Virus record (IMG/VR): IMGVR_UViG_2537561979_000009
Span: 1-41,073 of that record
DNA length: 41,073 bases
Reading direction: 5' to 3' (one strand)
Origin: a virus
Taxonomy: Duplodnaviria > Heunggongvirae > Uroviricota > Caudoviricetes
Part shown: piece by piece, positions 24,397 through 41,073 of the stretch
Position numbering within the stretch: position 1 is the first letter of the stretch
How the letters are laid out: each line of letters begins with the position of its first letter
Made by a program: the position numbers and the translations under genes
The notes under the pieces: model-generated
What the model was told of the DNA's origin: nothing
The model's database searches: none
Seen by the model: the letters and a program-made list of their open reading frames with translations, nothing else

Positions 24397-24726
24397 AGCA
24401 ACGCCTCCGCCAGTAACGGATTGCGTAGTTCTTGTATTAGGAAGGGGAAAAAGAAGGCCGCAGCATAATTGTCACTGATGAATTCACGACAGCCAGTGGC
24501 TACGGCTCGGTTTGGGTTGTGGTGGCTGGCGCAGGTCTCCGGCTTGCGGTTATTTCAGACTCTCACGGGCGTTTAATTGCCCCGCCGGACAGATCTTTTC
24601 CGCAATAGCTGCAATGTCTTTCGCGCATCAGCCTGAGCATTCACCACAACGATAAGAGCACTGCGCGGCACCTTTCACCAGTTCCGCGAGGTCTGCGGGT
24701 TCAGTGCTCTTACCTGTTGTGCAGAC

Positions 24727-24749
24727 AAAAAAAACCGCACGGCGGCGGG
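24727..24749 (-). terminator. tR'-like terminator of the late leader RNA (short GC hairpin plus U8 on the minus strand)
   Basis: Minus strand CCGCCGCCGUGCGG then UUUUUUUU, followed by GTCTGCACAACAGGTAAGAGCA..., which matches the lambda sequence just downstream of tR' as I recall it. Confidence 0.6.
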
Positions 24750-25200
24750 TTTAAGTTGTGTGGCGTAGGAACCACTCTTACCATGATATGCATACTTTTA
24801 CGATCGTAAAGTGTTTGTTCATACCCTGCATGCTGCATGATTCACCCCACAGACAATCTCTGGATTGTTGCGACGTTTGGCAAGATACAATTAAAGATTA
24901 TGCATTCATCTATGCACGTATTTTTCTTCAAAAGTAATGTCTTTATTAAGGTTATATAAATAACTCATAAACCCAAATAATTAAATATATTTAGCACTTC
25001 TAATAAAAAAGATTGATCTTAATTTTCTGAGTGAAAGATAGCCATCTATTTATTAGTTTGCATGACTTCTTATTTTGTGATAGTGGTCACATATAAAGAA
25101 TCGGACTCCTTAATTTTCCTTGTATACATTATACACAGAAATTAAATTTTCATCCTGATAGCATTTTGTCGTCCAATTAACTCCCACCAGAGGATAAAAA

Positions 25201-26307
25201 ATGAAAAATTTAACAGTGGCACTTTCTGCTGTAGCAGCATCAGTATTTCTGGCAACGTCTTCAAATGCAGCAGAAATATACAATAAAGATGCAAACAAAG
25301 TGGATTTATACGGTAAAGCAGTTGGTTTACATTATTTTTCTTCTGATAAGGACCAAAACGGAGATCAGACTTACGCACGCCTTGGATTCAGAGGTGAAAC
25401 CCAAATAAATAATTATATTACTGGTTTTGGTCAGTGGGAATATAATTTCCAGGGGAACAACCCTGAAGGGGATGGAGCTCAAACTGGAAACAAGACTCGC
25501 CTGGCATACGCTGGTCTGAAGCTTGCAGATGCTGGCTCTCTTGATTATGGTCGTAACTACGGCGTGGTGTACGACGCATTAAGCTACACTGACGTCTTCC
25601 CGGAGTTTGGACCTACCGCAGCGCAAGACGATAACTTCTTCGTTGGTCGTGTAGGCGGTGTTGCCACATACCGCAACACTGACTTTTTTGGACTGGTCGA
25701 TGGGCTTAGCTTTGCAATTCAGTATCTGGGAAAAAATGAACGCAAGGATAAACCAGATACTTCAAACGGAGAGGGTGTAGGTGGCTCTGTCAGCTATGAA
25801 TATGAAGGATTTGGTTTTGTCGCAGCATACGGCGCTGCTGATCGTACTAAAAATCAGAAAAAGGCTGAGCTTGGTAAAGGGAAAAAAGCTGAACAGTGGG
25901 CCACCGGGGTAAAATATGACGCAAATAATCTGTACCTGGCTGCCAGTTATGGTGAAACAAATAATACCCGTGCAATATCGTATGGTGATAATATTTCAGG
26001 AGTGGCGAATAAAACCGAAGATTTCACTGTTGTGGCACAATACCAGTTCGACTTTGGATTACGCCCGTCTCTTGCTTATACCCACTCTAAAGCAAAAAAC
26101 CTTTCATCCAGTACTGATATTAGTAAAAAACATGATGACGGATATATTGAAAAATTCGTTGAAGTCGGGGCTTCTTATTACTTCAACAAAAATATGTCTA
26201 CATACATAGATTACAAAATCAATATGCTCGATAAAAATAAATTCACTGAAAGAACAGGAGTATCAACCGACGATATTGTCGCTGTTGGTCTGGTTTATCA
26301 GTTCTGA
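25201..26307 (+). CDS. Outer membrane porin, OmpC/OmpF/PhoE family (prophage Lc/NmpC-like lysogenic conversion porin)
   Basis: 368 aa, signal peptide, ends in the beta-barrel motif ...VGLVYQF; AT-rich upstream region. Confidence 0.85.
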
Positions 26308-36506: not shown

Positions 36507-36634
36507 TTTCATTACTGCAAATGCCCCTTCGGGGGCATTTATGGAAACGTAATTAACTCAATAATCGCCGGATGGTGAGGGCTTCCTTTTACCCGAATTC
36601 AGCGCGGTGCAGCGCATATAACGTGGAGAACAAA

Positions 36635-37171
36635 ATGTCATTTATTAAAACTTTTTCCGGGAAGCATTTTTATTATGACAGGATAAATAAAGACAACATC
36701 GATATTAACGATATCGCGGTTTCCCTTTCAAATATCTGTCGCTTTGCCGGTCATCTTTCACACTTCTACAGCGTCGCCCAACATGCGGTGCTTTGCAGCC
36801 AGCTGGTGCCGCAGGAATTTGCTTTTGAAGCGTTAATGCATGATGCAACAGAAGCGTATTGCCAGGACATCCCCGCGCCACTGAAACGCCTTCTTCCTGA
36901 CTATAAACGGATGGAAGAAAAAATAGACGCCGTAATCCGTGAGAAATACGGGTTACCTCCTGTTATGAGCACGCCAGTGAAATATGCCGATCTCATTATG
37001 CTGGCAACCGAACGCCGCGATCTCGGACTTGATGATGGCTCTTTCTGGCCTGTATTGGAAGGTATCCCGGCAACAGAGATGTTCAAAGTTATTCCACTGT
37101 CGCCAGGTCATGCCTACGGGATGTTTATGGAACGTTTTAACGAGTTATCGGAGTTACGCAAATGCGCATGA
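36635..37171 (+). CDS. HD-domain phosphohydrolase (YfdR-like 5'-deoxynucleotidase family)
   Basis: H...HD motif region (FAGHLSHFYSVAQHAV...LMHDATEAY); start at MSFIKTF with GGAGAA Shine-Dalgarno rather than the ORF start at 36572. Confidence 0.6.
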   Translation: MSFIKTFSGKHFYYDRINKDNIDINDIAVSLSNICRFAGHLSHFYSVAQHAVLCSQLVPQEFAFEALMHDATEAYCQDIPAPLKRLLPDYKRMEEKIDAVIREKYGLPPVMSTPVKYADLIMLATERRDLGLDDGSFWPVLEGIPATEMFKVIPLSPGHAYGMFMERFNELSELRKCA

Positions 37172-37524
37172 ATGTTTTCGAAATGGAAGGGTTTCTTCGC
37201 GGGAAATGTGTACCGCGAGATCTGAAAGTGAACGAAACAAATGCTGAGTACCTGGTACGTAAATTCGACGCGCTTGAAGCTAAATGTGCGGCACTGGAAA
37301 ACAAAATAATACCAGTGTCAGCTGAATTGCCACCTGCAAATGAAAGTGTTCTGTTATTTGATGCTAACGGAGAAGGCTGGCTGATTGGCTGGCGTTCTCT
37401 CTGGTACACCTGGGGACAAAAGGAAACCGGAGAATGGCAGTGGACATTTCAGGTCGGGGATCTTGAAAACGTCAATATCACTCACTGGGCAGTAATACCA
37501 AAGGCACCGGAGGCAGGGGCATAA
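37162..37524 (+). CDS. Hypothetical early-left protein, 120 aa
   Basis: Coupled to flanking genes by overlapping stop/start codons. Confidence 0.45.
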   Translation: MRMNVFEMEGFLRGKCVPRDLKVNETNAEYLVRKFDALEAKCAALENKIIPVSAELPPANESVLLFDANGEGWLIGWRSLWYTWGQKETGEWQWTFQVGDLENVNITHWAVIPKAPEAGA

Positions 37525-38144
37525 TGACCACATTTACCGACAAAGAACTGATTAAAGAAATCAAAGAGCGCATAGGCAGTCTGGATGTGCGAGACAATAT
37601 TGAGCGCCGTGCTTATGAAATTGCTTTGGTATCGCTGGAAGCAGAACCGGTGGCATGGCTGCATTCAGACAATGGCTTAGGTATTCCGGCAATAACACGG
37701 AGTAAAAACATTGCTGACAGCTGGTTATCAAAGGGCTGGTATGTTCAGCCGCTATATATAGCCAAGCCAGTGCCGGTGGTGCCAGATGTTCGTCCATCTT
37801 TAAATAATGGCATAGTCGGTTTTGATGAAGGCTGGAACGCCTGCCGCGCCGCCATGCTTCATAGTGCCGAACCTGTAAGCCAGACTTACAAGTTGAACGA
37901 GCTGTCGGGCAACTCTCCGGTAACTCCGGATGGTTGGATAAGCTGTAGTGAGCGAATGCCGAACGATAAACAGTATGTTTGGTGTTGGGGGAAGTCTTAC
38001 GGCTGGACTGAGTGCGATACCTTCGAAGGGTATTACGATTGGTCGAGAAACAAATGGTGGGCAATTACTGACGATGGGGAAAAACCGGCATCGAAAGTAA
38101 CCCACTGGATGCCGCTACCGGAACCGCCGCAGGAGGTGAAGTAA
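37524..38144 (+). CDS. DUF551-like protein, 206 aa
   Basis: C-terminal WISCSERMP...KVTHWMPLPEPP resembles DUF551. Confidence 0.45.
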   Translation: MTTFTDKELIKEIKERIGSLDVRDNIERRAYEIALVSLEAEPVAWLHSDNGLGIPAITRSKNIADSWLSKGWYVQPLYIAKPVPVVPDVRPSLNNGIVGFDEGWNACRAAMLHSAEPVSQTYKLNELSGNSPVTPDGWISCSERMPNDKQYVWCWGKSYGWTECDTFEGYYDWSRNKWWAITDDGEKPASKVTHWMPLPEPPQEVK

Positions 38145-38338
38145 TGAACAACTTAATGACAACAAAACAAGTCGCCGAATTCTGTGGCGTTTCAGTATCG
38201 ACGGTGCTTCGCTGGAACAGCGTAAACAGGAGAACTGGCCAGAAATACAGGCCTGATTTTCCAGATCCTGATATCAAATCCTGCCCAAATAAATGGGCAT
38301 CACGCAAAATATACAGATTTGCTGGAGTTATTGAGTAA
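38144..38338 (+). CDS. xis: Excisionase (AlpA/Xis-type HTH)
   Basis: 64 aa, MTTKQVAEFCGVSVSTVLRW HTH; last gene of the early-left operon, near int. Confidence 0.65.
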   Translation: MNNLMTTKQVAEFCGVSVSTVLRWNSVNRRTGQKYRPDFPDPDIKSCPNKWASRKIYRFAGVIE

Positions 38339-38716
38339 TGAGAGTTAGCCAAGAGGTGAGATAGTATCCATCTATGGCACAGAACTAAACATAATCTGAC
38401 TATATGCTCTGTGCCAAAAACAGATGTTATATCATGTATTGTATGCTCATCCTGCAAAATATAAATTCCGCAGATACCCCTTACCTCTGAATATTAATCC
38501 ACAATGGATGCGACAAAAAAGATTTTGAGTTGGTATCAAGCGAAATATTAATAATTATAATACCCCATACACAATGCCATCTGAGTCATCATATCCTGGT
38601 CTCTATCAATATTTATCTTGCCATCAGAAAAATCCAACACAAAGAAATGATGAAATTTCGGCGGAACAACTTTAGAGTAAAAGCAGAAATACTCATTATT
38701 CCTTTCATATTGAAAA

Positions 38717-39679
38717 TTAACGTATATTTTTTAATTTTTTATTTTCCACCAGGTCCATAAACATTTTATTTAAATCTGACCTTTTACTTTCCTTGTCATC
38801 ATCTTGAAGCTTAGGATCAAAGTAACGTATTAAGCAGTTTTCAATAATTCTCCCCTCATTATCAACATCAATTTCATCCAGTAGAGAATTTGAAATATTA
38901 AAGACCACATTACATTTATTATTCAGCGATATAATCCTTGGATTAAATATACTAAAACAAACAAAAAAATCATTATCGTCATTTGAAACGCTATACAGCA
39001 TCTTTGATAAGCCACGGTGAATAAAATCAACAGGGCGCCGATGCGGATGACGTGTATATCCTACGTAATGCACTTCTGTATGAATTCCTAAATCAATATA
39101 ATGTCCGTTTACGAAGTCATGAACTGACATCACACATAAATTGCCATTTTCATATTCAATGTAGAGAAACTTCTCAGTTACTCTAACATTTGGAGTTACC
39201 TTCACTACCCCATTCTGCGTAAACGTGCAAAAGGAATATTTTATCCGAAGCTTTCGCTCTTCTTTGCCAATCAACAGAGTGAATACTATATTTTTTGTGA
39301 ATGGGTTATACCTAGGCTGTTTCTTGGTTGAAAACCTTACTTTTTTTCTTGAACCTAAGAAATAAATAAATCTCTTTTCACAGCTTTCCCTCGTATATTT
39401 TTCCATAATTCTGAGATAGTTCTTTATTATCTTATTTGTTCTTATATCATCAGGAGGATTAATTATCATATCATACCAAATACAATCGGTGTTAATGAGA
39501 TCAATCCACAATGACTTATCGGCTTCTGAGAAAACCACGTTAGAGTTTATAAAATCAAAGTTTCCGCGAGTCATAAAACACTTCATCACATTAAAAATCA
39601 CCTGCACATAATAAATTAAGTAGCAGAAGGTTCGCAAACCCTTGCTTCTGTTTGTGCTATGATATTTTTCATAATTCAT
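38717..39679 (-). CDS. Hypothetical protein, 320 aa, AT-rich moron between xis and int
   Basis: Markedly lower GC than the flanking phage DNA, rich in Asn/Lys/Ile/Phe; no recognisable motif. Confidence 0.6.
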   Translation of the reverse strand: MNYEKYHSTNRSKGLRTFCYLIYYVQVIFNVMKCFMTRGNFDFINSNVVFSEADKSLWIDLINTDCIWYDMIINPPDDIRTNKIIKNYLRIMEKYTRESCEKRFIYFLGSRKKVRFSTKKQPRYNPFTKNIVFTLLIGKEERKLRIKYSFCTFTQNGVVKVTPNVRVTEKFLYIEYENGNLCVMSVHDFVNGHYIDLGIHTEVHYVGYTRHPHRRPVDFIHRGLSKMLYSVSNDDNDFFVCFSIFNPRIISLNNKCNVVFNISNSLLDEIDVDNEGRIIENCLIRYFDPKLQDDDKESKRSDLNKMFMDLVENKKLKNIR

Positions 39680-39837
39680 TGATTGGCATCCCTACATCCT
39701 TAGTCCCACAGTAACCCAATAAACCATCAAACTCCTGCCGACACCCCAAATACTGAAGCTACCGGTTAACGTAGTCTGGCTAAAAACCCAGTACACAAGG
39801 TATCCGCAGCGGACTGGCAGATATGATTACGCTCTGG

Positions 39838-41073
39838 CTACGCAAACTGTCCGTTGGAGATTAAGTCAGTACAAGTAACGATCGATTCAACCCTCTCCCA
39901 CCATGCCCAGTAAGCTTTACGCTGTTCTTCTAGATAATCGCTCTTATCATAAACTTGCCATACACCTGGCAGTTTATGACCGAGCATTATTTCAGCAATA
40001 TGAGGAGCAGTAAGATCAGAAAAGTTTGTTCGTGCTGTTCGTCTCAAATCATGAAGAGACCAATGAGGAAATTGATACCCCAAACGTCGCCATGCGAACT
40101 GCATTAAATTGTAAGGCAGCGACTGCAATGATGTCCGACCAACTGGCTCCCTGCTTCCTTCCTTAGTAAAAAGCATATCGGAACCGTTGTTCATAGAGAT
40201 AACGTATTTTATAAGCTCTTCAACCGGTTCAATAATGGGCCGCTTTAGCGGTTCGCCTGTTATGTCCCCAGTCTTATGTCGTTCTGGTGGTACAGTCCAT
40301 ACCTTATTTATGAAATCAAAATCATCCACCCTAGCAGTAATTAGCTCTGAACTACGGCAACCAAAATGCAGCAATAGTTTAATGAAGGCTCGGTATTTAG
40401 GAACCATTCGAGAACCATCGATCGCAGCATAAAGGATGTTAATTTCATCATGTGTCAGAAACCGTTTTTTCTGACCTTTACGGATATCCATATCTTTACC
40501 CGTGATATCCGACAGTGGGCGAGTTTCAATGAGCTTTCTCTTATACGCCCAGACATGGGCCTGCTTTGCGTTAATTAGCAATCGGTCTACTATTGCTGGA
40601 GTCTTGGTGCTAAGAGGCTCCAGGACTTCTAACCAATCATGCAATGTAGCTGCATCGTGAGGGATATTCCCGATTTTAGAGAACAGGTGCAGCTCAAACG
40701 AGCGGAGTATCTGTTCAGAACCTTTTTTATTTTTTACACAATATGCTTCATACCAGGCACGGATCACAGACTCTACCGTCATGGCTTCAGTAGCTTTTCG
40801 TTTTTCAGCCTGCTTGACTAATCGTGGATTGCGGTTTGACTCGAGTTCACCACGGAGACGGATAACTTCTTCTCTGGCCTCTTTTAATCCAGTTGCCGGG
40901 TAAGTTCCGATATCAAGGCGCTCACCTTTCCCTGCCCATTGATAACGATATTGGAACACTACGCGACCTTTCGGTGATACTCTGACAGACAGACCATCAC
41001 GATCGGATTTAACCAAAACCTTATCACGTTCCTTTCCAACGACTGAACGCAACCACGCATCAGACAGCGCCAT
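39838..41073 (-). CDS. int: Tyrosine integrase, P4-type with DUF4102-like N-terminus
   Basis: 411 aa; N-terminal ...LSVRVSPKGRVVFQYRYQWAGK arm-binding-like region and C-terminal R...HDLRRT...LGH...Y catalytic motifs; ATG occupies the last three bases of the window. Confidence 0.85.
   Translation of the reverse strand: MALSDAWLRSVVGKERDKVLVKSDRDGLSVRVSPKGRVVFQYRYQWAGKGERLDIGTYPATGLKEAREEVIRLRGELESNRNPRLVKQAEKRKATEAMTVESVIRAWYEAYCVKNKKGSEQILRSFELHLFSKIGNIPHDAATLHDWLEVLEPLSTKTPAIVDRLLINAKQAHVWAYKRKLIETRPLSDITGKDMDIRKGQKKRFLTHDEINILYAAIDGSRMVPKYRAFIKLLLHFGCRSSELITARVDDFDFINKVWTVPPERHKTGDITGEPLKRPIIEPVEELIKYVISMNNGSDMLFTKEGSREPVGRTSLQSLPYNLMQFAWRRLGYQFPHWSLHDLRRTARTNFSDLTAPHIAEIMLGHKLPGVWQVYDKSDYLEEQRKAYWAWWERVESIVTCTDLISNGQFA

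What the first reader, a model, noticed from the sequence alone, without database searches (positions are those of the whole stretch)
38339..39837. AT-rich 320-aa gene of unknown function between xis and int
The segment between xis and the 3' end of int has much lower GC than the surrounding phage DNA and holds one 320-aa ORF with no motif I recognise. The int-proximal end is a classic site for horizontally acquired cargo in prophages, so this is a candidate single-gene accessory or defence function. A 9-bp inverted repeat TGGCACAGA...TCTGTGCCA sits just after xis at about 38372-38423.
Basis: partly seen in the sequence, partly recalled or inferred. Interest (0 to 1): 0.7.

Follow-up and report, generated by a model that had tools for sequence, protein, structure and literature searches.

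The report
Frameshifted cryptic GIY-YIG nuclease cargo gene
The AT-rich gene between xis and int is a horizontally acquired 1.4-kb cassette encoding an uncharacterised protein with a hidden GIY-YIG nuclease core; it sits in a prophage slot that holds known anti-phage genes in related prophages, but this copy is cut short by a frameshift.

Summary
The low-GC ORF is real: GC is 0.32 against 0.51 for the window, the lowest 1-kb stretch in 41 kb. The family starts at M36 of the 320-aa ORF, and the intact protein is 342 aa. The window copy has two 1-base deletions (A7-TT-A7 to A6-TT-A6, 38727-38740). These remove the last 64 residues, including conserved S301, H310 and F312. The allele is real: it occurs in four independent samples, while 58 of 58 complete E. 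coli genomes show no indel there.

The gene lies in a discrete cassette (38428-39809) that is also found on a Serratia conjugative plasmid. Related prophages carry Dsr1 or a dGTPase in the same slot, and distant homologs sit in defence islands.

Best reading: a new single-gene, nuclease-based anti-phage candidate that is probably inactive in this window. Function is untested.

The parts
38428..39809 (.). Horizontally acquired cargo cassette (~1.4 kb): the gene plus ~235 bp upstream and ~120 bp downstream
   Evidence: Homology to same-int prophages with other cargo stops at 38412-38439 and resumes at 39808-39870. The Serratia liquefaciens conjugative plasmid shares window 39809->38428 as one block, 84% over 1402 nt. 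GC is about 0.32.
38548..39574 (-). Footprint of the intact 342-aa gene (family start M36 to the ancestral stop), interrupted in this window by two 1-base deletions
   Evidence: RefSeq CDS WP_225092812.1 in a 99.9% identical locus maps here. 41- and 101-member alignments all start at MxRG. The 57 downstream codons are still intact in the shifted frame.
38717..39574 (-). The ORF as it stands in this window from the true start: 285 aa, ending in the aberrant ...KKLKNIR*
   Evidence: Identical to WP_250143782.1 / P0202. The same allele occurs in 4 independent samples.
39575..39679 (-). Spurious 35-codon N-terminal extension of the 320-aa ORF
   Evidence: Not conserved in the family. pLDDT is below 50. 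The upstream frame is closed by a stop in the Serratia cassette. A promoter-like site lies inside it.
38727..38740 (-). Slippery tract: A6-TT-A6 on the coding strand, versus A7-TT-A7 in intact alleles. This is the site of both frameshifting deletions.
   Evidence: Indels at 38727 and 38735 against L001 and L002 and L018. 58 of 58 complete E. coli genomes have no indel here. Shigella dysenteriae has A7-TT-A8.
38789..39154 (-). Central divergent GIY-YIG-like nuclease domain (ORF residues ~176-297). In 342-aa numbering it carries H/Y152, Y170-V-G172, R180, H186, E245 and Q257.
38548..38716 (-). Out-of-frame remnant of the C-terminal domain (ancestral residues ~286-342, including conserved S301, H310, F312)
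   Evidence: Frame-1 translation gives IYVNFQYERNNEY...GYYNY*, identical to the intact relatives. S301 is conserved in 91/101, H310 in 92/101 and F312 in 84/101 members.
39608..39637 (-). Promoter-like site TTGCGA-18-TATTAT, 34 nt upstream of the M36 ATG (candidate own promoter; weak evidence)
   Evidence: 9/12 match, but the count of such sites in the region is not above shuffles. The -35 hexamer is conserved in the Serratia cassette and the -10 only partly.
38375..38416 (.). 9-bp perfect inverted repeat with a 24-nt spacer, at the backbone/cargo junction. It is part of the conserved xis 3' flank, not of the cargo.
   Evidence: RNA hairpin of -23.7 kcal/mol, z -5.4, on the minus strand. No U-tract, so no terminator call. 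Homology with other-cargo prophages runs through it.
38144..38338 (+). xis (excisionase), convergent with the cargo gene; context only
   Evidence: phrog_1553 excisionase, E 1.3e-35; HTH_17.
39838..41073 (-). Tyrosine integrase, upstream of and co-oriented with the cargo gene; context only
   Evidence: Phage_integrase, Arm-DNA-bind_3 and Phage_int_M. In relatives it lies next to yjjG.

Best explanation
The segment is a discrete, horizontally acquired ~1.4-kb cassette (38428-39809) sitting in the variable cargo slot between the convergent xis and int genes of a lambdoid (KplE1/yfdPQR-type) prophage integrated next to yjjG. It encodes one stand-alone protein of an uncharacterised family (342 aa when intact).

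The protein has three parts. The first is an N-terminal region with a conserved basic KRFIYF...R..VRF beta-hairpin. The second is a central, highly divergent GIY-YIG nuclease domain, with His or Tyr on the first strand, Y-V-G on the second, Arg +10, a Glu-bearing helix, and Gln in place of the usual Asn. The third is a small C-terminal beta domain with conserved Ser, His and Phe.

The most likely function (inferred, not shown) is a single-gene anti-phage defence nuclease. The flanking domains would recognise a feature of invading DNA, such as a base modification, or a phage-made cue, and would then license the GIY-YIG core to cut DNA. There is no partner methyltransferase. This makes it analogous to CMoRE/PD-T4-3 and other type IV-like enzymes.

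In this window the gene carries two 1-base deletions in adjacent A7 runs. These replace the last 64 residues, including the whole C-terminal domain, with 7 aberrant residues, so this copy is probably inactive.

Shown: the cassette boundaries, the GC anomaly, the frameshift and its recurrence, the GIY-YIG-like fold and motif conservation, the variable slot, and the defence-island neighbourhoods. Inferred: nuclease activity, the defence role, the sensing mechanism, and loss of function of the truncated allele.
For: Cassette and foreign origin. Every homolog is 6-26 GC points below its host flank.

Gene model.

Frameshift: A6-TT-A6 versus A7-TT-A7. Only 2 of 16 long homopolymers differ from the nearest relative, and both are in this gene. 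The same allele occurs in 4 independent samples whose flanks differ by about 1% and in RefSeq as WP_250143782.1. 58 of 58 complete E. coli genomes have no indel at the tract.

Defence context. The same slot holds Dsr1, a dGTPase (PADLOC E 9e-105), a TPR protein and other hypotheticals. Homologs lie next to Dcm/DUF4928/Vsr in a Salmonella ICE; between BrxR+BilABCD and two RTs in Robbsia; next to type I R-M, an RT and a ScoMcrA-HNH gene in Klebsiella; next to CTD6/MC2 in Proteus; next to CcdAB/PIN; and next to a methylase-PLD-helicase fusion, ATPase_2/DUF234 and DUF3375. No conserved partner gene appears across these contexts.

The family is small and has one architecture: 218 clusters at 50% identity among 1.84 billion representatives, all about 320-345 aa.
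Against: There is no experimental evidence of nuclease or anti-phage activity for any member, and no paper in the searched library names the family.

There is no PADLOC hit for either the truncated or the intact protein. No Pfam or NCBIfam hit passes threshold for the window protein.

The 'GIY' half of the motif is not detectably aligned; Pfam alignments start at profile position 12-13. The canonical Asn is Gln in only 69/101 members.

Five of the twelve non-E. coli neighbourhoods are uninformative: Arcobacter, Budviciaceae, the P0042 contig, Psychrobium and the Serratia plasmid.

The copy in this window is truncated, so whatever the family does, this locus may do nothing.

The truncated allele persists in several lineages. 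This could mean the truncation is tolerated or even functional rather than simply dead.
Confidence: 0.55

Rival explanations
1. It is a selfish, free-standing GIY-YIG homing-endonuclease-like gene. The cassette spreads by cutting a cognate empty site and being copied in by repair, with no benefit to the prophage or host.
For: It has a GIY-YIG-type core. It is AT-rich, free-standing and apparently carries its own upstream region. It moves as a sharply bounded 1.4-kb block between a prophage and a Serratia plasmid. The closest fold match is the homing endonuclease I-TevI.
Against: Family members sit at unrelated loci with no shared flanking target gene: a prophage int-xis slot, an ICE, a plasmid and chromosomal defence islands. 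The E. coli slot is a generic cargo slot that also holds Dsr1 and a dGTPase. The nuclease domain is central rather than N-terminal, and no NUMOD, IENR1 or HTH DNA-binding module typical of GIY-YIG homing enzymes was detected. Only 1 of 50,697 phage records carries it.
Confidence: 0.12
2. It is a nuclease that serves the phage or acts as a toxin rather than as direct immunity. Examples are a host-DNA-degrading enzyme used after induction (T4 EndoII-like), a superinfection-exclusion factor against related temperate phages, or an abortive-infection toxin that kills the cell.
For: T4 EndoII is among the best fold matches. There is no methyltransferase or antitoxin partner, so self-protection must come from regulation. 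Frameshift, IS1 and N-terminal disruptions in several lineages would fit a gene that is costly or toxic.
Against: The gene is transcribed opposite to the early-left operon and is not placed among lytic genes. Many homologs are chromosomal in defence islands with no phage around them. The intact allele is maintained without indels at the slippery tract in 58 of 58 complete E. coli genomes that carry it.
Confidence: 0.15
3. The GIY-YIG-like domain is catalytically dead, and the protein is a DNA-binding or structural accessory factor, such as a regulator or an integration/excision cofactor.
For: The first-strand Tyr is usually His, and the final Asn is Gln or variable. No member reaches the Pfam gathering score. 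The gene lies between int and xis.
Against: The residues that matter most for GIY-YIG chemistry (second Tyr, Arg, Glu) are conserved in 87-88 of 101 members down to about 20% identity. There is no similarity to any recombination directionality factor or regulator family. Most prophages with the same int/xis lack the gene, so it is not needed for recombination.
Confidence: 0.06
4. The frameshift is a sequencing or assembly artefact, and the window really encodes the intact 342-aa protein.
For: Both changes are 1-base under-counts of A7 homopolymers, the classic error of pyrosequencing or nanopore reads. The window is identical to an early draft assembly, GCA_000190975.1.
Against: The same A6/A6 allele appears in three further samples assembled independently, two of them from raw read sets, with flanks differing by about 1%. 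14 of the 16 other long homopolymers agree with the nearest relative. RefSeq lists the 285-aa product as a multi-species protein.
Confidence: 0.1

Closest known systems
CMoRE / PD-T4-3 (single-protein GIY-YIG type IV restriction enzyme; PDB 9u75; PMC12923530)
   Different: There is no sequence similarity: the PADLOC PD-T4-3 models do not hit. [quoted passage not shown] Here the nuclease is central, the first-strand residue is mostly His, and the flanking domains are unrelated. Modification dependence is untested.
Canonical GIY-YIG nucleases (I-TevI catalytic domain 1ln0, UvrC N-terminal domain 1ycz, T4 EndoII 2wsh, R.Eco29kI 3mx4; Pfam PF01541)
   Different: All members are below the Pfam gathering score (best 22.2 against 22.6 bits). 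The GIY strand is not alignable by sequence and carries His in 78/101 members. A ~25-residue beta-hairpin insertion lies between the Arg and Glu elements. Gln replaces Asn. The domain is embedded in the middle of a 342-aa protein.
Defence hotspots of temperate phages and satellites (P2/P4 hotspots, from general knowledge; here the int-xis slot of yjjG-site lambdoid prophages)
   Same: A fixed position bounded by conserved phage genes holds mutually exclusive, low-GC cargo, including known defence genes (Dsr1, dGTPase).
   Different: This particular slot and this cargo family were not named in any paper I could find. About half of the alternative cargos sampled are also uncharacterised.
PHROG 7779
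   Same: The window protein matches it at E 1.7e-203 over residues 36-319, so the family is already catalogued among prophage proteins.
   Different: The PHROG carries no functional annotation, so the match says nothing about mechanism.

Membership tests
GIY-YIG nuclease superfamily | Characteristic alpha/beta fold: a three-stranded sheet (beta1-beta2, then beta3) flanked by helices | tested here: met
GIY-YIG nuclease superfamily | 'YIG' motif: Tyr-[Ile/Val]-Gly on the second strand | tested here: met
   Y170 in 88/101, V/I171 in 98/101 and G172 in 92/101 members. It aligns to I-TevI Y17-V-G by hhalign and to PF01541 profile position ~13.
GIY-YIG nuclease superfamily | Catalytic Arg about 8-10 residues after the YIG Tyr | tested here: met
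   R180 in 87/101 members, +10 from Y170. This is the same spacing as I-TevI Y17->R27 in the aligned pair.
GIY-YIG nuclease superfamily | 'GIY' Tyr on the first strand | tested here: inconclusive
   The best candidate position (152, at the end of the preceding strand) is His in 78 and Tyr in 15 of 101 members. However, Pfam and hhalign alignments do not extend into this strand, and I could not superpose coordinates.
GIY-YIG nuclease superfamily | Metal-binding Glu in the C-terminal helix, followed by a conserved Asn | tested here: inconclusive
   E245 is present in 87/101 members and aligns to the Glu of the UvrC 'LLLE' helix. The residue at +12, where UvrC has Asn, is Gln in 69/101 members. 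So the Glu is met, but the Asn is replaced. The alignment probability is low (3.6%).
GIY-YIG nuclease superfamily | Sequence membership: Pfam PF01541 at the gathering score | tested here: not met
   The window protein has no hit. 9 of 101 members hit at E of 1 or less. The best is 22.2 bits against a cutoff of 22.6. By this criterion the family is a divergent relative, not an annotated member.
GIY-YIG nuclease superfamily | Metal-dependent phosphodiester cleavage | not testable with these tools
   This needs purified protein and active-site mutants.
CMoRE / PD-T4-3 | Match to the PD-T4-3 profile; N-terminal GIYxY-YIG nuclease plus C-terminal 5hmC-sensing domain | tested here: not met
   There is no PADLOC hit for the truncated or the intact protein. 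The nuclease domain is central, and there is no GIYxY motif. It works like this family at most; it is not a member.
Type IV (modification-dependent) restriction enzymes | Cleavage only of DNA that carries a specific base modification; no cognate methyltransferase | not testable with these tools
   Absence of a conserved neighbouring methyltransferase is consistent with this. Modification dependence needs phage and biochemical assays.
Free-standing GIY-YIG homing endonucleases | N-terminal GIY-YIG domain, linker and C-terminal NUMOD/IENR1/HTH DNA-binding module; insertion at a conserved cognate site | tested here: not met
   No such modules were found in any of the 101 members. The nuclease domain is central. 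The insertion sites differ between genomes.
Prophage defence hotspot cargo | Same backbone position occupied by different, mutually exclusive genes, including known defence genes; atypical GC | tested here: met
   Five alternative cargos were found at the same int/yjjG site, two of them known defence genes. The boundaries are sharp. GC is 0.32 against 0.51.
   No such hit in Pfam, PHROGs or NCBIfam. Most prophages with the same int and xis lack the gene.

The most novel reading that the evidence does not exclude
The intact family is a previously unrecognised single-protein anti-phage system. In it, two novel domains gate a cryptic GIY-YIG nuclease: a basic N-terminal beta-hairpin region and a C-terminal Ser/His-bearing beta domain. 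They would recognise a new kind of cue, either a DNA modification or a phage protein. The A7-TT-A7 tract just before the C-terminal domain would act as a recurrent on/off (or regulated/unregulated) switch, given that three different slip, IS or disruption alleles are already on record.
Probability: 0.3. Interest if true: 0.65.

Novelty: new variant of a known kind. Interest (0 to 1): 0.5.

Why it matters
If the intact protein is shown to defend, it adds a new single-gene nuclease system that current defence finders miss: PADLOC, Pfam and NCBIfam are all negative. Its GIY-YIG core is too divergent for sequence tools to see, and its flanking domains have no known relatives, so they could reveal a new way of telling foreign DNA from self.

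It also marks the int-xis junction of yjjG-site lambdoid prophages as a defence hotspot. About half of the cargos sampled there are still unannotated, which makes the slot a practical place to look for more systems.

For this specific window the lesson is more sober. The ORF as read is a truncated allele with a spurious N-terminal extension, so experiments should use the intact 342-aa version.

Tried and rejected
1. Sequence-family searches gave nothing usable for the window protein. This covers Pfam, NCBIfam, PADLOC and PDB sequences, with a single protein and with 41- and 101-member profiles. The NNH2 hit (E 0.049) is noise.

2. Foldseek of the whole model against the PDB gave no hit with E below 0.001 and TM of 0.12 or less. 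The afdb50 library was unavailable.

3. I tried to build a broad GIY-YIG profile from I-TevI with the search for homologous proteins. It returned only 9 close relatives, so a true profile-profile test was not possible. The single-sequence hhalign results fix the register only and are not significant.

5. The inverted repeat as an intrinsic terminator is rejected: there is no U-tract in either orientation. It also has no Rfam match. It is backbone, not cargo.

6. The 76-aa plus-strand ORF at 38530-38760 and the 130-aa minus-strand ORF at 38065-38457 are treated as spurious: the first has no family hit, and each overlaps a real gene or the frameshift remnant.

7. Literature. The ECOR13 mentions in Vassallo 2022 and in the membrane-nuclease preprint are unrelated. 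END nucleases are defined by an inactive EndoIII domain that is absent here. The DefensePredictor supplements contain neither the accessions nor sequence fragments.

8. General homopolymer sequencing error is rejected as the cause of the frameshift. It is kept as a low-probability rival.
Full report
**1. What is at the coordinates**

The window is a lambdoid prophage. Tail, head, lysis, Q, replication and cI/cro genes are followed by yfdP, yfdQ, yfdR, a DUF551 gene, xis, the finding and int. In near-identical E. coli loci int abuts yjjG.

Between xis (38144-38338, +) and int (39838-41073, -) there is one long ORF, 38717..39679 on the minus strand, 320 aa. It is convergent with xis and co-oriented with, and downstream of, int.

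GC falls to 0.27-0.37 across 38250-39750, against 0.43-0.50 on either side. The gene has GC 0.321 and the window 0.512. No other 1027-bp stretch of the 41 kb is lower, and this one is about 3 sd below the mean.

**2. The gene model is wrong at both ends**

*5' end.* All 41 close-to-moderate homologs and most of 101 diverse ones begin MxRG at the ORF's Met36. RefSeq starts there too. Residues 1-35 have pLDDT below 50. In the Serratia copy of the cassette the upstream ATG frame runs into a stop before M36.

*3' end.* Two loci that are 99.9% and 98.9% identical each carry one extra base at window 38727 and one at 38735. On the coding strand the window reads A6-TT-A6 where they read A7-TT-A7. Their product continues for 57 more codons, giving 342 aa in total. 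The window product instead ends ...KKLKNIR*. The 57 downstream codons are still intact in the shifted frame.

*Is the frameshift real?* Only 2 of 16 homopolymers of 6 or more bases differ from the nearest relative, and both lie in this gene. The exact 320-aa product is encoded in five contigs from at least four samples. One of them (GCA_000190975.1) is 100% identical to the window over 5.4 kb. The others differ by about 1% in the flanks yet share A6/A6. RefSeq lists the 285-aa product as WP_250143782.1.

Conversely, none of the 58 complete E. coli genomes with this segment has an indel in the tract. Other decayed alleles exist: A7-TT-A8 plus an N-terminal disruption in Shigella dysenteriae, and an IS1 at the 3' end in strain MMC-J-0091.

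The truncation removes S301, H310 and F312, which are conserved in 84-92 of 101 members. I infer loss of function; this is not shown.

**3. What the protein is**

Pfam, NCBIfam and PADLOC give nothing at threshold for the truncated or the intact protein. PHROG 7779, of unknown function, matches at E 1.7e-203.

An exhaustive profile search finds only 218 clusters (at 50% identity) among 1.84 billion representatives. All are about 320-345 aa with no fusions.

The conserved stretches HYVGYT..P..R....H.G and EG.IIE..LI.YF....Q looked like the YIG-Arg and Glu-helix elements of GIY-YIG nucleases. I treated that as a lead and tested it four ways.

- (c) Scanning 101 members one by one against Pfam, GIY-YIG (PF01541) is the family hit most often: 9 members, best E 1.8e-4. 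No other family recurs in more than 4. In P0082 the match is 22.2 bits against a cutoff of 22.6 and covers residues 168-220, profile positions 13-57. That is the YVG...R region.
- (d) hhalign of the family profile against I-TevI (sequence verified) and against E. coli UvrC gives weak local matches, but at exactly the predicted registers. YVG..R aligns on Y17..R27, and E245/Q257 align on the UvrC LLLE-helix Glu and its Asn, with the same +10 and +12 spacings.

Conservation across members down to about 20% identity: Y170 88, G172 92, R180 87, H186 85 and E245 87 of 101. The candidate first-strand position 152 is His in 78 and Tyr in 15.

I conclude that the fold is GIY-YIG-like and that the active site is probably competent. 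The family fails Pfam's membership threshold. The GIY strand could not be aligned, and the canonical Asn is usually Gln. It is a divergent relative, not an annotated member.

**4. The cassette and the slot**

blastn against five prophages that share the integrase but carry other cargo shows homology ending at 38412-38439 and resuming at 39808-39870. A Serratia liquefaciens 187-kb conjugative plasmid shares window 39809->38428 as a single 84%-identical block.

The unit that moves is therefore about 1.4 kb: the gene, ~235 bp upstream and ~120 bp downstream. The upstream part contains a promoter-like TTGCGA-18-TATTAT 34 nt before M36. Its -35 hexamer is conserved in Serratia, but such sites are not enriched over shuffles.

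About 700 of 5,426 complete E. coli genomes have this integrase family at the same site, and 58-61 carry the gene. In its place others carry:
- Dsr1;
- a dGTPase-family protein, PADLOC dGTPase E 9e-105;
- a 646-aa TPR protein;
- two small hypotheticals;
- a 345-aa hypothetical.

Only 1 of 50,697 phage records holds the gene: PhiR63_1 from ECOR13.

**5. Neighbourhoods elsewhere**

Six contexts contain defence or conflict genes:
- Salmonella Carmel: inside a conjugative element, next to Dcm-methylase/DUF4928/Vsr.
- Robbsia: between BrxR plus BilA-D and two reverse-transcriptase genes.
- Klebsiella variicola: next to type I R-M, a 1005-aa RT and a ScoMcrA-type HNH protein.
- Proteus: next to CTD6/MC2 conflict-system genes near smpB.
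- A Pseudomonadales MAG: next to CcdAB and PIN.
- A metagenome contig: next to a methylase-PLD-helicase fusion, ATPase_2/DUF234 and DUF3375.

Five contexts are uninformative. No neighbour is conserved across contexts, so the gene acts alone. Every homolog is 6-26 GC points below its flanks.

**6. Mechanism, with status**

*Shown.* The gene is foreign, discrete cargo in a variable slot that also holds known defence genes. The family has a single architecture with a GIY-YIG-like core and conserved catalytic-type residues. There is no partner gene. This copy is truncated.

*Inferred.* The protein is a DNA endonuclease whose flanking domains restrict its activity to invading DNA. They could do this by reading a base modification (type IV-like, as in CMoRE) or by responding to a phage cue. 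The C-terminal domain is needed, so the window allele is inactive.

I put about 0.85 on the GIY-YIG-like fold, about 0.55 on a defence role, and about 0.85 on the frameshift being real.

Rivals are a selfish homing-endonuclease-like cassette, a phage-serving or toxic nuclease, a catalytically dead DNA binder, and a sequencing artefact. They are laid out with their tests in the rivals section.

**7. The inverted repeat**

The repeat is real (38375-38383 and 38408-38416). It folds strongly, especially on the minus strand (-23.7 kcal/mol, z -5.4). It lacks a U-tract in either orientation, has no Rfam match, and lies in backbone shared by prophages with other cargo. It ends where the variable region begins. 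Its role is open: a 3' stabiliser or terminator of the early-left transcript, or a recombination boundary.

**8. Novelty**

No paper in the searchable library mentions the accessions, the PHROG or sequence fragments. Subscription-only literature was not searched. The general type, a stand-alone nuclease defence gene in a prophage hotspot, is well known. The family, its cryptic GIY-YIG core and its flanking domains are not described. I rate it a new variant of a known kind, of moderate interest, and I lower the score because this copy is a frameshifted allele and the function is untested.

Noticed in passing
window 25201-26307 (+), with a GC 0.30-0.35 stretch at 24700-25300: A 368-aa Gram-negative porin gene (Porin_1, E 2.9e-125) lies on the opposite strand to the surrounding late genes, between the Q antiterminator and the lysis genes. 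It is a second, classic lambdoid moron of the nmpC/lc type. It has no PADLOC hit.
   Followed up: partly
window 38375-38416: The inverted repeat sits exactly at the junction between the conserved xis-side backbone and the variable cargo. It forms a strong hairpin on the minus strand but has no U-tract. It could be a transcript 3' stabiliser or a recombination boundary for cargo exchange.
   Followed up: partly
window 38727-38740; also P0205 (Shigella dysenteriae) and L021 (E. coli MMC-J-0091): The A7-TT-A7 tract just before the C-terminal domain is hit independently: A6/A6 here and A7/A8 in S. dysenteriae. Both alleles end in the same ...NIR* frame. A third lineage has an IS1 insertion at the 3' end. 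This may be plain decay, selection against an active gene, or a crude switch.
   Followed up: partly
L014 2931-3907, L016 2849-3886, L017 1898-3838 (same int-xis slot in other E. coli): The alternative cargos include two small hypotheticals (160 and 150 aa), a 345-aa hypothetical and a 646-aa TPR protein. They have no PADLOC match or only a weak one (PDC-M02A, E 3.8e-6). These are further unannotated candidates in the same hotspot.
   Followed up: partly
L019 (Serratia liquefaciens plasmid NZ_CP068149.1) 7753-9150: The whole 1.4-kb cassette, flanks included, is present at 84% identity on a 187-kb MOBP/MPF_I conjugative plasmid. None of the prophage backbone is present there, so the cassette moves between a plasmid and a prophage by an unknown route. 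No flanking repeats or recombinase were looked for.
   Followed up: no
window 35656 and 36620; ORF 36572-37171: There are two non-homopolymer 1-base insertions relative to the closest E. coli relative, both in intergenic DNA. The second lies upstream of the annotated yfdR start. It makes the mechanical ORF 199 aa long, against 178 aa annotated in relatives.
   Followed up: no
L027 18-1118: In the metagenome defence island that holds homolog P0019, a separate 366-aa protein with a weak canonical GIY-YIG Pfam hit lies about 7 kb away. It is unrelated to the family studied here.
   Followed up: no
window 37162-37524 and 37524-38144: Two adjacent DUF551-type genes precede xis: a 120-aa one with a sub-threshold hit and a 206-aa one with a clear hit. 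Related prophages vary in how many DUF551 genes they carry at this position (L016 and L024 lack them).
   Followed up: no
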